Part shown: positions 48,566-57,898 of the stretch, piece by piece | How positions within the stretch are numbered: position 1 is the first letter of the stretch | Layout: each line of letters starts with the position of its first letter | Notes under the pieces: generated by a model | Databases searched by the model: none | What the model saw: the letters and a program-made list of their open reading frames with translations, nothing else | What the model was told of the DNA's origin: nothing | Assembly: GCA_027493445.1 (NCBI GenBank) | Contig: JAOSKU010000001.1 | Coordinates: forward strand, 1,136,715 to 1,200,714 | Source: Thermoleophilia bacterium | GTDB lineage: Bacteria > Actinomycetota > Thermoleophilia > RBG-16-64-13 | Direction: 5' to 3' | DNA: 64,000 nucleotides | Translations under genes and position numbers: made by a program

Positions 48566-48625
48566 GCCCAACGCTAGGCATCAGCGGCGATACGCAGCGG
48601 CGGCCGCTGCCTGCTGGTGTTGGGC
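48566..48625 (-). other. attC site (60 bp) closing the type I R-M cassette
   Basis: R'' GCCCAAC, internal inverted repeats (GCAGGCAGCGGC / GCCGCTGATGC), R' GTTGGGC. Confidence 0.85.
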
Positions 48626-48671
48626 CGCCCTTCACAATCTGCCCTTACTGGTCGACGGCGCATCGCCCTGA

Positions 48672-51600
48672 TCATCGCAGCACGTCCACCAGCTCTGCGA
48701 TTACGGACACCTCGCCCTCGTCGATGCCCGTCAAAACGATGGGTTCGAAGTCGGGATTCTCGGGGAGGAGCCGAATGACCTTGTGCGTCCAGTCGCCCCT
48801 CCCGTCGGCCTCCTTTTCGCTCTCGTAGCGCTTGACGGTGTAGCTGCCGCCAGACTCGGGGTCCTCGATGGACTGATGCTGAAAGAGGACAATGCGGCCC
48901 TGGCGGGATCCCGTGACCGGGGAGCGGAACAGACACCAGGCACCGTCGGGGATCCGCGGCTCCATCGAGCGACCCACTACCTGCGCGACGAACATGCCCT
49001 CGGACAGTTGCCGCCCGGTGCGCGGGGCGACCCAGCCATCGGGCTCGACATGCTGGCCGGCGCCGAACGCGCCGGCAGCGGCCTTGAGCGTGTAGAGCGG
49101 CACGCAGGTGCGATACTTGTCCTCTTGCGGCGGCTCGACCAGTCGGAAAGGCGCGTCGCCGGCGGCCGGTGCTTGGGCCTGCTCGCCGCGGACCTGCTCG
49201 TAGACCTTCTTCAGCAGGTGCTTGCCAACGACGTCCTGGAACTCCTGGTCGTTCATGAAGCGACCGGTAATGTCCTCGTTCTGCTCCATGCGGTCGATGA
49301 AGAGCCCCTCCAGCGCCTTGAGAAACACGTAGCCGAAGTTCTCCATGGAGTTCGCCAAGGCGGCCTGGCGGATCTCGGGATCGGCCAGGGCGTCCTCGCG
49401 GATGGACTCCAGGAAGAGCTGGTCTCCCGGTTTGAAATCGGTCCCGAAGCGCTCGTTCAGGATGTCGATGAGCTGGGAGAGCTCGATCTTCTCAGCGTGG
49501 GCGGCCCGGCTGCCGACCGCAACCGGGCCCGCCACCTCGCCACCCTTCCCGGCTTCGAGGGGGATGGAGCCCTCGCTGATCTTCTGGAGGCGGTAGTACT
49601 TCAGTGCCACCTCGTCATCGAAGTCATAGACCGGACCGCGGTCCCCCCTCGGCAGCTTCGCGAGCAGGAAGCGGATGTACGAGTAGAGCTTCTCGAGGTC
49701 GGAGTCCTGGAAGGGGATGACCTGGGAAAGGAAGGCGTAGAGGTTGCGGTAGGCCACGAGGGTCTTGCGGAACTCCTCGCGCTCCTCCTCGGCGAGCTGT
49801 TTGTAGCGGTTCGCGGCGGGGTCGATGCAGGCGTTCATCCGCGCATGGTCCGCGGCCGTCTGGTTCTGCCTGGGCTTGTAGAAGACCTTGCAGAACTTCT
49901 CGACCTCGCTCTTGTGATAGACCTGGTGAGCGTCGAGCTTGGCCTGGAGCTCATAGAGCTGCCTCGGCTCCGCGCGCTCCCCGATCAGGGTCTGCTCGTA
50001 GTAGGGCTGGAAGGCGGCCAGGATCTCCTCCGGCTCGTTCACGAAGTCGAGCACGAAGGTGTCCTCTTTCCCCGAATGCCTGCGATTGAGCCGGGAGAGC
50101 GTCTGCACAGCCTGGATGCCGGCCAGGCGCTTGTCGACGTACATGGTGTGCAGGAGCGGCTGGTCGAACCCGGTCTGGTACTTCTCCGCCACGAGCAGGA
50201 CCTGGTACTCCTCCGAACCGAAGCGCTCGGGGAGCTCCTTCTCGCGGATGCCCTGGTTCATCCCGACCTCGGTGTACTCGACGCCGGGCGCGTCGGGATC
50301 GATCACCGTGCCGGAGAAGGCCACGAGCGTCTTGATGCCCTGGTAGCCCTTTTCCGCGATGTACCGGTCGAAGGCCTGCTTGTAGCGGACGGCGTGAAGC
50401 CGGCTGGAGGTGACCACCATGGCCTTCGCCTTCCCGCCGATCTTGTGCATGGTGAAATGGCGGAAGTGCTCGACCATGACCTCGGTCTTCTGCGCGATGT
50501 TGTGCGGGTGCAGGCTCATGAAACGCGCCAGCGCGCGCGCCGCCTTGCGCTTGTCGACCTCCGGGTCGTCCTCGATCGCCTTGATCAGCCGGTAGTAGGT
50601 CTTGTAGGTGGTGTAGTTCAGAAGGACGTCGAGGATGAAGCCCTCCTCGATCGCCTGTCGCATGCTGTAGAGGTGGAAGGGTTGCGGCGTGCCGTCCATC
50701 CCGGGCACGCCGAACACCTCGAGGGTCTTGTACTTCGGCGTAGCCGTGAAGGCGAAGAAGCTGATGTTGGGCTGGCGGCCGCGCTTGGCCATGGTGAGGA
50801 GGATCTCCTCCTCGTGATCGGGCAGGCCCTCCTCCGCCGCCTTCTGCTGCGCCTCCTCGCGAATCGCCGCTCCGCCGAGGACGCCCTTGAGCTCGGTCGC
50901 CGTCTCGCCACCCTGGGAGCTGTGCGCCTCGTCGATCACCACGGCGTACTTCCGGAGCGGCAGGTCGCCGATCTTCTCGGTGACGAAGGGGAACTTTTGC
51001 AGGGTCGTGACCACGATCGGGACGCCGGCCCCGAGGGCCTCAGCGAGCTGCGCCGAGTCGCGGTCGATCTTCTGGACCACCCCCTGCCGGTGCTCGAACT
51101 GGTAGATCGTGTTCTGAAGCTGTTGATCGAGCACTACCCGGTCGGTGACGACCACGACCGAGTCGAAGATCCTCTCGTCCTGCGCGTCGTGGAGGGTCGA
51201 GAGGCGATGCACCAGCCAGGCGATGGAGTTGGATTTGCCGCTCCCGGCCGAGTGCTGGACGAGGTAGTTGGCACCCGCCCTGCACTCACGCGCATCGCGG
51301 ACCAGCGCTCGCACGCAGTTGAGCTGGTGGTAACGGGGGAAGATCATAGTCTCCCGCTTGACCCTCCTGTTGCCGAGGCGCTTCTCCTCGACCTGCAGGT
51401 GGATGAAGCGGGCGAGGACGTCGAGCAGGCTCCCGCGTTCGAGGACTTCCTCCCACAGGTAGGCCGTCTTCCAGCCGTTGGGGTTCTCGGGGTTGCCGCC
51501 GCCGCCCGCGCGGCCCTTGTTGAAGGGCAGGAAGTGCGTGTTGCGACCGGCAAGGCGCGTGGTCATGTAGACCTCGTCCGGGTCCACCGCGAAATGGACG

Positions 51601-57753: not shown

Positions 57754-57802
57754 CCGTTATCGCTCTCCCTGGTAGCGCAAGACACGACCCGCGCGCTTGT
57801 CG

Positions 57803-57898
57803 GCCCAACGACCGAGTTGAGCGGCCGACCAGGATGATCGTGCCGCGGCCAGACCCGGCCCACGATGCCTCGTGGTCTGCTCCAACGCGTTGTTAGGC
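57803..57898 (-). other. attC site (96 bp)
   Basis: R'' GCCTAAC just after the stop codon, GTTGGAGC/GCTCAAC arms, R' GTTGGGC. Confidence 0.88.

What the first reader, a model, noticed from the sequence alone, without database searches (positions are those of the whole stretch)
48572..57808. Giant ~9.2-kb five-gene cassette carrying an entire type I R-M system plus accessory effectors
Seen: hsdM-CHAT-hsdS-DUF3800-(sRNA)-hsdR::S24 lies between R' GTTGGGC (57803-57809) and its complementary R'' GCCCAAC (48619-48625), and I found no internal attC. Known: typical cassettes hold one ORF of about 0.5-1 kb. Inference: a multi-layer defence system moving as a single integron cassette.
Basis: partly seen in the sequence, partly recalled or inferred. 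Interest (0 to 1): 0.88.

Follow-up and report, generated by a model that had tools for sequence, protein, structure and literature searches.

The report
Giant restriction-system integron cassette
A whole five-gene restriction-modification defence operon, 9.2 kb long, sits between two genuine integron recombination sites exactly as a single gene cassette would, which is about thirteen times the usual cassette size in this genome, although nothing shows that it still moves.

Summary
Observation confirmed. On the minus strand, hsdM, a CHAT-domain gene, hsdS, a DUF3800 gene and hsdR with a C-terminal S24 peptidase domain fill the 9,237 bases between the R' core of one attC (57803-57898) and the R' core of the next (48566-48625). 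A covariance model built from this genome's attC sites, run without filters, finds no internal attC. The two internal intergenic gaps do not fold like attC. The cassette's first six bases are the exact complement of its own attC's R'', as for the three cassettes upstream. Short-read contigs of four public runs bridge both junctions. They also show that the apparent hsdS frameshift is a homopolymer assembly error. The "sRNA" is not supported.

Interpretation partly supported. It is structurally one cassette (median here 716 bases). It lies in an integrase-less attC cluster with deletion scars, including a remnant of a second type I system ending beside a sub-threshold attC-like sequence. No other copy, circle or empty site was found, so movement as a unit is inference. 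Published surveys say defence systems in cassettes never exceed two components and that the largest known cassettes are about 2 kb, so this is a notable outlier.

The parts
57803..57898 (-). attC of the preceding cassette (192-aa ORF, 57900-58478). Its R' core (57803-57809) gives the 5' boundary of the giant cassette: the crossover lies between G 57809 and T 57808.
   Evidence: R1 41.4 bits, E 2.7e-08. DNA fold z -2.71, 0 of 200 shuffles as stable. Its R'' and R' match only 6/7, but its R' matches the R'' of the next attC 7/7.
48572..57808 (-). The cassette itself, 9,237 bases, from the TT of the upstream R' to the G of its own R'.
   Evidence: No internal attC with filters off. Internal gaps do not fold like attC. 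Contigs of independent runs bridge both ends.
55717..57753 (-). hsdM, 678 aa. GTG start 49 bases after the R' core. Overlaps the CHAT gene start by 4 bases.
   Evidence: Pfam N6_Mtase 7e-55 and HsdM_N 1.8e-27. PADLOC MTase_I 2.5e-289.
54653..55720 (-). CHAT-domain protein, 355 aa: N-terminal part of about 135 aa plus a caspase-like CHAT domain.
   Evidence: Pfam CHAT 28.1 bits, cut-off 24. PADLOC PDC-S66 1.5e-19 on residues 1-133 and 'chat' 1e-10. 3,728 homologues at E<=0.001 among 8,000 candidates scored.
53202..54543 (-). hsdS with two target-recognition domains. It reads as two overlapping frames in the window because a C run on the minus strand near 54030-54034 is two bases short in the assembly.
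   Evidence: Frames seen. 'GG put in behind 54034' in 4 of 4 runs at full depth. PADLOC Specificity_I 2.4e-89 on the 3' frame.
52312..53205 (-). DUF3800 protein, 297 aa. Overlaps the hsdS stop by 4 bases.
   Evidence: Pfam DUF3800 2.9e-13, 51.2 bits. No PADLOC family.
48672..52169 (-). hsdR fused to a C-terminal S24 domain. The likely start is ATG 52169 (1,165 aa, with a ribosome-binding-like AGGAGG upstream). The longest ORF runs to GTG 52388.
   Evidence: Pfam HSDR_N, SWI2_SNF2, T1R_D3-like, ResIII and Peptidase_S24. The closest homologues are 1,160-1,167 aa. Sequence.
48690..49010 (-). LexA/UmuD-type S24 peptidase domain at the HsdR C-terminus. An ...AAAG... motif lies upstream.
   Evidence: Pfam PF00717 35.5 bits, cut-off 23.3. 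The AAG, G-x-SM-x-P and TVKR positions are conserved in at least 80-95% of 121 aligned C-termini.
48566..48625 (-). The cassette's own attC, 60 bases, starting 46 bases after the hsdR stop.
   Evidence: R1 52.5 bits, E 3.4e-11. DNA fold z -3.10. Its R'' is the exact complement of the core at 57803-57809.
48350..48565 (-). Deletion scar directly downstream: the 3' third of a higA antitoxin gene and its own mutated attC (48350-48411). Not part of the cassette, but it defines the state of the array.
   Evidence: R1 23.5 bits. Alignment to intact higBA cassettes of two same-family genomes. Boundary rule fails, 3/7.
46521..46917 (-). Remnant of a second type I R-M operon: HsdM residues of about 26-94 joined to the last ~35 residues of an HsdR. 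A sequence follows at 46521-46587 whose 3' half resembles the attC consensus but which does not reach significance.
   Evidence: BLASTP to the HsdM of L023: 47/69 identical, E 6e-30. To its HsdR C-terminus: 24/35, E 8e-14. Pfam T1RH-like_C 2.9e-09. attC-like hit only 7.8 bits, E 2.3.

Best explanation
This is one bona fide integron gene cassette by structure. It is exceptional in size (9,237 bases) and holds a complete operon rather than one short gene.

The operon encodes a type I restriction-modification enzyme: HsdM methylase, a two-domain HsdS specificity subunit, and an HsdR motor-nuclease. Two accessory genes are translationally coupled into it, a CHAT caspase-like protease and a DUF3800 protein. 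HsdR carries a LexA-type self-cleaving S24 domain at its C-terminus.

The unit sits in an attC cluster without an adjacent integrase (a CALIN). It lies among other defence-like and toxin-antitoxin cassettes, in a genome from bioreactor metagenomes whose core gene looks Thermoleophilia-like.

Inferred history: the whole operon was turned into, or captured as, a cassette with an attC of this lineage's type. An integron integrase then inserted it. It has since stayed put while the array downstream decayed by deletions.

Inferred function: methylation protects host DNA and HsdR cuts unmodified incoming DNA. The CHAT and DUF3800 proteins would act as a second, probably abortive-infection-type, layer. 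The S24 domain would tie HsdR activity to a RecA-type damage signal.

Shown: anatomy, boundaries, intactness of the reading frames, absence of internal attC. Inferred: capture as a unit, present mobility, all protein functions.
For: 1. Both flanks are real attC sites of the genome's own family.

2. There is no internal attC. With filters off, the best internal hits are 10.7 and 9.8 bits (E 0.4 and 0.7), against 41-69 bits for the five real sites of the array. Only two internal intergenic gaps exist, of 109 and 142 bases. Their fold z-scores are -1.13 and 0.03. The other gene junctions overlap by 4 bases.

3. Boundary rule. The R' core in front of the cassette is the exact complement (7/7) of the R'' of the cassette's own attC, but only 6/7 to the R'' of the attC it belongs to. 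The same holds for the three cassettes upstream, each with a different core. Genome-wide, 9 of 22 consecutive attC pairs are 7/7. The shuffled mean is 2.36, and 9 or more occurred in 10 of 100,000 shuffles.

4. Cassette-like packing: hsdM starts 49 bases after R', the attC starts 46 bases after the hsdR stop, and all genes run with the attC top strand.

5. The structure is not an assembly artefact. Contigs with 0 differences bridge the 3' junction (X1 46667-49600, X3 47314-49600, X4 46797-48708) and the 5' junction (X1 56649-62438, X3 57613-62438, X4 57527-62438).

6. All five genes are open. The only frameshift is an assembly error.

7. Foreign origin. GC falls to 0.545-0.59 in 54001-56000, against about 0.67 elsewhere. 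CHAT homologues were found in 5 of 400 other genomes of the phylum, at 47% identity or less. By contrast, identity is 58-65% in named Desulfuromonas, Shewanella and Planctomycetaceae records.

8. A second type I system, now a 300-base remnant, ends about 20 bases before a sub-threshold attC-like sequence in the same array.

9. Integrons are native to the lineage. intI scores above the curated cut-off in 21 of 151 genomes of the class. One same-family genome has an intact intI followed by 25 attC sites detected by the same model.
Against: - No integrase adjoins the cluster. The nearest intI trace is a 40-residue fragment about 36 kb away, beside a separate attC cluster, with leuA, leuB and feoB in between.
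- The genome's two intI genes look disrupted. One has two in-frame stops. The other has two frameshifts that may be assembly errors.
- The core type in front of the cassette is common: 6 of 26 sites. Taken alone, the 7/7 match has roughly a one-in-four chance.
- Only one instance is known. It was not found in 60 relatives, and 3 short metagenome contigs gave no context.
- The array shows deletions right next to the cassette, so attC loss does happen here.
- Experiments in print tested cassettes only up to about 3 kb and saw reduced excision for the largest (PMC5371416, passages read). A 4-kb cassette was not recovered in a capture screen (10.64898/2026.03.17.712381, passages read). Efficient movement of 9.2 kb is therefore doubtful.
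- The R1 model is genome-specific, so a very atypical attC could be missed.
Confidence: 0.7

Rival explanations
1. Pseudo-cassette. The operon came to lie between two attC sites that were not originally its own. This could be by deletion of neighbouring cassettes and their attC sites, or by insertion of the operon into a small earlier cassette through a non-integron route. On this reading it never was, and is not, an IntI substrate as a unit.
For: The array demonstrably loses DNA by deletion. The higBA cassette directly downstream lacks higB and about two thirds of higA. A second type I operon is reduced to 300 bases. The stretch 46521-48349 holds several genes with no attC reaching E 0.01 in the filters-off search. 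The size is far beyond anything shown to recombine (PMC5371416 and 10.64898/2026.03.17.712381, passages read).
Against: The cassette's own attC is intact and starts 46 bases after the hsdR stop. hsdM starts 49 bases after the upstream R'. No gene fragments, repeats or spare sequence remain at either end. The 5' core and own R'' match 7/7, while the upstream attC's own pair is mismatched. The downstream scar begins after the R' core plus about 7 bases, so it lies outside the cassette.
Confidence: 0.2
2. Two or more ordinary cassettes separated by an atypical or decayed attC that the genome-specific model misses.
For: R1 was built from only 12 sites of one genome. Decayed attC sites in this array score as low as 7.8-23.5 bits.
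Against: Only two internal gaps could hold an attC. Neither has a core pair or a significant hairpin. hsdM/CHAT and hsdS/DUF3800 overlap by 4 bases. A type I system needs all three hsd genes. The same gene set occurs as one operon, with no attC found by R1, in a Planctomycetaceae genome.
Confidence: 0.05
3. Assembly chimera: the long-read assembly joined unrelated pieces at repeated attC sites.
For: The assembly has indel errors: 3 confirmed in the 20 kb laid.
Against: Short-read contigs bridge both junctions without differences in 3 of the 4 runs laid, each from a different study. Depth is even across the unit. X1, X3 and X4 may be source samples. In X7 only the 5' junction is bridged, by a listed contig at 56962-58071.
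Confidence: 0.02

Closest known systems
Defence cassettes of sedentary chromosomal integrons (Vibrio; Darracq et al., bioRxiv 10.1101/2024.07.02.601686, section 5 and passages read)
   Same: Anti-phage systems stored as attC-bounded cassettes, next to toxin-antitoxin cassettes, in chromosomal arrays.
   Different: That survey reports that systems in cassettes 'never exceed 2 components' and are shorter than elsewhere. It finds types II and IV R-M prevalent, and long loci such as CRISPR-Cas or BREX absent. Here there are five genes, three of them the components of a type I system, in 9.2 kb. That survey used IntegronFinder, whose default clustering distance is 4 kb (PMC4889954). A cassette this long would split the array under that default.
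CALIN, clusters of attC sites lacking an integrase (Cury et al. 2016, PMC4889954, passages read)
   Same: An attC cluster on one strand without an adjacent intI, in a genome that has intI elsewhere.
   Different: The paper takes about 2 kb as the largest known cassette size. The gap here is 9.2 kb and is filled by one operon, not by a missed site, an IS or an intron.
Cassettes inflated by mobile insertions
   Same: Large attC-to-attC distances. This genome has a 3,255-base interval with a group II intron reverse transcriptase, an attC split by an IS, and an IS in the helicase cassette.
   Different: The 9.2-kb unit contains no transposase, intron or repeat. All of it is operon.
Type I R-M operons with embedded accessory genes
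   Same: A Planctomycetaceae MAG locus (L023) has hsdM-hsdS-CHAT-DUF3800-ORF-DUF4268-hsdR. The E. coli prr locus, with an anticodon nuclease inside a type I operon, is a recalled analogy that was not tested here.
   Different: L023 has another gene order and another HsdR family (T1RH-like_C, no S24). No attC was found by R1. In the window, CHAT and DUF3800 are separated by hsdS.

Membership tests
Integron gene cassette | 3' end formed by an attC site with paired R''/R' and L''/L' boxes | tested here: met
   48566-48625: R1 52.5 bits. Pairing across 12 seed sites is 82% of cells against 71.9% when shuffled. Fold z -3.10.
Integron gene cassette | 5' end at the G|TT crossover point of the preceding attC's R' core | tested here: met
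   57803-57809 is the R' of attC 57803-57898.
Integron gene cassette | First six bases of the cassette complementary to the R'' of its own attC | tested here: met
   7/7. The rule holds for 9 of 22 pairs in the genome, shuffled mean 2.36. Alone, its chance value is about 6/26.
Integron gene cassette | No further attC inside | tested here: met
   Filters-off search: best internal hit 10.7 bits, E 0.4. Internal gaps do not fold. Limit: the model is genome-specific.
Integron gene cassette | Excised and inserted as a circle by an integron integrase | not testable with these tools
   Only contigs, not raw reads, were on hand. No second copy was found.
Integron (complete) | intI and attI adjacent to the array | tested here: not met
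   TIGR02249 hits over the cut-off lie only at C1:3325015. A split one lies at C1:3171113. Only a 40-residue fragment lies about 36 kb from the cassette. The cluster is therefore a CALIN.
Type I restriction-modification system | HsdM, HsdS with two target-recognition domains, and HsdR with nuclease and SF2 motor, in one operon | tested here: met
   Pfam and PADLOC hits. The hsdS frame is restored by reads. Enzyme activity was not tested.
Peptidase S24 (LexA/UmuD type) | Domain score above the Pfam cut-off, a Ser-Lys dyad, and an upstream Ala-Gly site | tested here: met
   35.5 bits against 23.3. The SM and VKR positions and the AAG motif are conserved in 121 aligned C-termini. That these are the catalytic and cleavage residues is recalled knowledge. 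A phmmer search against PDB found nothing. Self-cleavage was not tested.
CHAT (caspase-like) proteases | CHAT domain above the cut-off; catalytic His/Cys | tested here: inconclusive
   The domain scores 28.1 bits against 24. Catalytic residues were not examined.

The most novel reading that the evidence does not exclude
Integrons of this lineage can capture whole polycistronic defence operons of 9 kb or more as single cassettes, and can mobilise them. They may have done so at least twice in this array: the intact unit, and the remnant of a second type I system that ends beside a sub-threshold attC-like sequence. If so, the reported size limit of cassettes, and the rule that defence systems in cassettes have at most two components, would be partly artefacts of the 4-kb search window. 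Integrons would then be vehicles for large multi-gene immune systems, here in a probably actinobacterial class where complete integrons were reported missing.
Probability: 0.3. Interest if true: 0.8.

Novelty: new variant of a known kind. Interest (0 to 1): 0.6.

Why it matters
Cassette size is treated as a hard constraint in the papers read here. One paper takes about 2 kb as the largest known cassette and sets its search window from that (PMC4889954). Another infers 'streamlined' defence systems from the constraint (10.1101/2024.07.02.601686). Excision has been measured only up to about 3 kb (PMC5371416).

A cleanly bounded 9.2-kb cassette with an intact three-component R-M system is a natural test case. 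It could address:
- whether IntI can move such units;
- whether cassette genesis can act on a whole operon;
- how many large cassettes default searches have split or missed.

It also places a defence-rich attC array in a lineage that looks like Thermoleophilia. The 2022 survey of complete RefSeq genomes found no complete integron in Actinobacteria (10.1101/2022.02.28.482270, passages read).

Tried and rejected
- Internal attC: not found.
- sRNA between DUF3800 and hsdR: no Rfam hit and no stable fold. Rejected.
- hsdS pseudogene: rejected. It is an assembly homopolymer error.
- Same unit elsewhere, DNA search of 60 relatives: only distant hsd homologues at 64-72% identity and higA matches. A same-genus contig (L036) has an S24-type gene end followed by other genes, and R1 found no attC there.
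- Same unit elsewhere, CHAT as anchor: 2 genome loci, with no attC by R1, and 3 metagenome contigs of 1.6-2.4 kb, too short for context.
- Shewanella plasmids carry CHAT homologues outside any R-M operon.
- Reads: no contig joins 48572 to 57808 and no empty-site joint was listed. Contigs drop rare variants, so this is not evidence against excision.
- No RNA holder listed. This is no evidence on expression.
- Promoter and terminator scan: nothing on the minus strand. The scan is not suited to this organism.
- PDB sequence search with the S24 end: 0 hits.
- ESM Atlas with a core protein gave no usable taxon.
- RNAalifold on the raw MAFFT alignment gave no structure. I supplied the pairs by hand and checked them.
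- Literature: searches found no report of a type I R-M system, or of a cassette of this size, inside an integron cassette. One search found no paper on HsdR-S24 fusions. One search found one paper holding 'integron', 'Thermoleophilia' and 'attC' (listing seen only). Subscription journals and supplements were not searched. The supplementary tables of 10.1101/2024.07.02.601686 (system types per cassette) could bear on the claim and were not seen.
- In a note I had miscounted 10 of 21 pairs. The computed figure is 9 of 22.
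Full report
**Setting.** The window is G000:C1:1136715-1200714, with GC about 0.67. From about 44.2 kb to 62.3 kb the minus strand carries a row of attC sites. I collected 12 clear sites from the window and from the 20 kb beyond it (L010), using a relaxed core-plus-hairpin scan. I aligned them and wrote the R and L box pairs by hand, because RNAalifold gave nothing on the raw alignment.

I then checked the pairs. 82.0% of cells pair, against 71.9% in shuffles and 28-36% when slid. Ten pairs have compensatory changes. From this I built covariance model R1.

R1 finds sites on the minus strand at 62242-62302, 60743-60829, 58490-58549, 57803-57898 and 48566-48625 (41-69 bits). 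It finds weaker ones at 48350-48411 (23.5 bits) and 44245-44306 (22.9 bits); the latter is the 3' half of an attC split by an IS.

In 57803-57898 the 5' arm has a 7-base core, a 5-base spacer and an 8-base L box with one extra base. The 3' arm is 7-6-7 (read). This matches the classical attC top-strand layout as I recall it. It agrees with all cassette genes lying on the minus strand.

**The observation.** Between the two sites lie five genes:
- hsdM, 55717-57753;
- a CHAT-domain gene, 54653-55720;
- hsdS, 53202-54543;
- a DUF3800 gene, 52312-53205;
- hsdR with a C-terminal Peptidase_S24 domain, 48672-52169; the longest ORF runs to 52388.

hsdM/CHAT and hsdS/DUF3800 overlap by four bases. The only gaps are 109 bases (CHAT to hsdS) and 142 bases (DUF3800 to hsdR). 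hsdM starts 49 bases after the upstream R' core, and the downstream attC begins 46 bases after the hsdR stop.

With all filters off, R1 gives nothing better than 10.7 bits (E 0.4) inside the unit. The two gaps fold no better than shuffles, while both flanking attC sites do. Rfam has no match in 44000-64000 at E<=1, so the '(sRNA)' is not supported.

**Is it one cassette?** In a cassette the six bases after the crossover point travel with it and are the complement of the R'' of its own attC. I recall this as the standard description of cassette boundaries. Here the attC at 57803-57898 has an R'' and an R' that match only 6/7, but its R' matches the R'' of the attC at 48566-48625 in 7/7 positions. 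The three cassettes upstream show the same pattern, each with a different core variant.

Over all attC sites found in the genome, 9 of 22 consecutive pairs are 7/7. The shuffled mean is 2.36, and 9 or more occurred in 10 of 100,000 shuffles. So the rule is real here, and the giant unit obeys it. Its core type is common (6 of 26 sites), so this point alone is worth only about a factor of four.

Sizes: for 20 attC-to-attC intervals the median is 716 bases. The next largest are 3,255 bases, which holds a group II intron reverse transcriptase, and 2,253 bases. The unit is 9,237 bases. It contains no transposase, intron or repeat.

**Independent check of the sequence.** Thirteen public runs were listed for the stretch, all bioreactor metagenomes. 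Twelve hold it or a part, in five studies. I laid Logan contigs of four runs from four studies on 44100-64000. Contigs without any difference bridge both cassette junctions in X1, X3 and X4. In X7 one bridges the 5' junction. X1, X3 and X4 may be the source samples.

All four runs insert two G behind 54034. The C run on the minus strand is therefore seven long, not five. This turns the two overlapping hsdS frames into one gene that reads ...NLPTLIPPLDEQRAITAFLD.... The frameshift is an assembly error. Two single-base errors in the IS transposase (45066, 45510) are of the same kind. No joint between 48572 and 57808 was listed, but contigs cannot show rare forms.

**State of the array.**
- Directly after the cassette's R' core and about 7 more bases comes the last third of a higA gene, with its own mutated attC (48350-48411).
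- Two same-family genomes carry the intact higB-higA cassette inside true integron arrays, and the alignment shows what is missing here. This is a deletion scar outside the giant cassette, not a flaw in its boundary.
- Further down come a nucleotidyltransferase/HepT-like pair (my reading, not searched) and a short-chain dehydrogenase.
- Next is a 300-base remnant in which HsdM residues of about 26-94 are joined to the last 35 residues of an HsdR. Identity to the HsdM and HsdR of locus L023 is 47/69 and 24/35 (Pfam). It is followed after about 20 bases by a sequence that resembles the 3' half of the attC consensus but scores only 7.8 bits.
- A vapBC-like pair (PIN domain) and the IS-split attC close the row.
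- So a second type I operon once lay in this array, apparently also ending next to an attC. This is suggestive, not proven.
- Upstream cassettes hold a 192-aa protein, an OLD/GajA-like nuclease, a 406-aa protein, and a UvrD/GajB-like helicase gene broken by an IS.

**Integrase.** TIGR02249 scores above its cut-off only at C1:3325015, a gene with two in-frame stops. A second intI, at C1:3171113-3172034, is split over three frames. Both have attC sites downstream on the same strand.

A 40-residue intI fragment lies at window coordinate about 98.1 kb, next to a separate cluster of 13 attC sites (85.8-97.0 kb). Between that cluster and the window's cluster R1 found no attC in 64-84 kb. That stretch carries a citramalate synthase (leuA-like), an isopropylmalate dehydrogenase-type gene (leuB-like), feoB and a molybdopterin oxidoreductase. 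The window's cluster is therefore a CALIN.

Integrons are native to the group. intI scores over the cut-off in 21 of 151 genomes of the class, G000 included: 17 of 25 in family f3 and 4 of 25 in the own family. One same-family genome has an intact intI followed by 25 R1 hits on the same strand within 16 kb.

**Origin of the unit.** GC drops to 0.545-0.59 in the CHAT and hsdS region. The CHAT protein has 3,728 homologues at E<=0.001 among 8,000 candidates scored. Among hits that carry an organism name, identity is 58-65% (Desulfuromonas, Shewanella, Planctomycetaceae). Only 5 of 400 other genomes of the own phylum have one, at 47% or less.

The closest HsdR C-termini (76-85%) come from metagenomes and a Deferrisomatales MAG. 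This fits horizontal acquisition.

The gene set recurs. A Planctomycetaceae MAG has hsdM-hsdS-CHAT-DUF3800-ORF-DUF4268-hsdR, and R1 found no attC there. So the CHAT and DUF3800 pair is a repeated passenger of type I operons, and the operon form exists outside integrons.

**How it most likely works.**
- Shown: the anatomy.
- Inferred from family knowledge: HsdM2S methylates a bipartite site. HsdR translocates along unmodified DNA and cuts it.
- Speculation: the CHAT protease, whose N-terminal part matches the PADLOC candidate PDC-S66, and the DUF3800 protein form a second layer.
- The S24 domain keeps the Ser and Lys positions and an upstream AAG motif. These are conserved in 121 aligned sequences. 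By analogy with LexA-type proteins (recalled), HsdR could cleave itself in response to a RecA filament.
- None of this was tested.

**Comparison with what is in print.**
- Darracq et al. (section 5 read) state that defence systems in cassettes never exceed two components and that long loci are absent.
- Cury et al. 2016 (passages read) take about 2 kb as the largest known cassette and cluster attC sites within 4 kb.
- Loot et al. 2017 (passages read) tested up to 3,060 bases and saw reduced excision for the largest.
- A 2026 preprint (passages read) failed to recover a 4-kb cassette.
- Néron et al. 2022 (passages read) found no complete integron in Actinobacteria.
- Searches found no report of a type I system or a cassette of this size inside an integron.

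**Verdict.** The structural reading, one giant cassette, is the best explanation (0.7). The claim that it moves as a unit is open. The find is a new variant of a known kind and a useful test case. Interest 0.6.

**Taxon.** The best named relatives of the core citramalate synthase are MAGs labelled Thermoleophilia (86, 77 and 76% identity), Gaiellales and Actinobacteria. This rests on one protein and is an inference.

Noticed in passing
window 48672-49271 (HsdR C-terminus): The S24 domain fused to HsdR is not a one-off. 1,301 proteins of 680-2,167 aa match this C-terminal part at E<=0.001, among 2,714 candidates. Most of the 120 listed are HsdR of about 1,165 aa. Others are N6_Mtase/Eco57I-type enzymes and DEAD/DUF1998 helicases. 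The AAG motif and the Ser and Lys positions are conserved. One literature search found no paper on this. A damage-triggered self-cleaving tail on several defence enzymes would be worth a study of its own.
   Followed up: partly
window 54030-54034; 45066; 45510: The assembly under-calls homopolymers. Contigs of 4 of 4 runs add GG behind 54034, G behind 45066 and C behind 45510. Apparent frameshifts elsewhere in this genome, such as intI at C1:3171113-3172034 or the split dnaE-like pieces in L009, may have the same cause.
   Followed up: partly
G000:C1:3325015-3325845 and 3171113-3172034 (L012, L011); L047 (G014): Integron integrases with attC sites downstream on the same strand, so intI is co-oriented with the cassettes. 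intI scores over the curated cut-off in 21 of 151 genomes of the class. One same-family genome has an intact intI and 25 attC hits. The lineage looks like Thermoleophilia. A 2022 RefSeq survey found no complete integron in Actinobacteria (10.1101/2022.02.28.482270, passages read).
   Followed up: partly
window 62404-63830: An IS-like element with about 26-base inverted ends and a 471-aa ORF with no Pfam hit. Its depth is about 9 times the single-copy level. It is inserted in a UvrD/GajB-like helicase gene whose 3' end precedes attC 62242-62302. Contigs of X1 and X3 join 44127 to the IS end at 62409, which suggests another copy or a variant at 44127 in those samples.
   Followed up: partly
window 44305-45750: A second IS, at about 3.5 times single-copy depth, splits an attC whose halves lie at about 45798-45750 and 44306-44245.
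   Followed up: partly
L010 9828-10877 (window coordinates about 93.8-94.9 kb): A group II intron reverse transcriptase/maturase lies inside the 3,255-base attC interval of the neighbouring array. I recall that introns of this kind target attC sites.
   Followed up: no
L029 1-1591 (metagenome contig): A CHAT homologue (54% identity) is followed 56 bases after the end of the match by an attC-like site (R1 17.6 bits, E 0.023). It is preceded by what looks like the 3' end of another. The CHAT gene may exist as a single-gene cassette elsewhere.
   Followed up: partly
L023 7067-16540 (Planctomycetaceae MAG): A type I operon with CHAT and DUF3800 adjacent and overlapping, plus a DUF4268 gene, between hsdS and hsdR. 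The remnant at window 46595-46917 belongs to this HsdM/HsdR family.
   Followed up: partly
window 57900-62189: Three single-gene cassettes lie upstream: a 192-aa protein and a 406-aa protein without any Pfam or PADLOC hit, and a 705-aa OLD/GajA/AriA-like ATPase-TOPRIM nuclease. The two unknowns are candidates for new defence genes by position.
   Followed up: no
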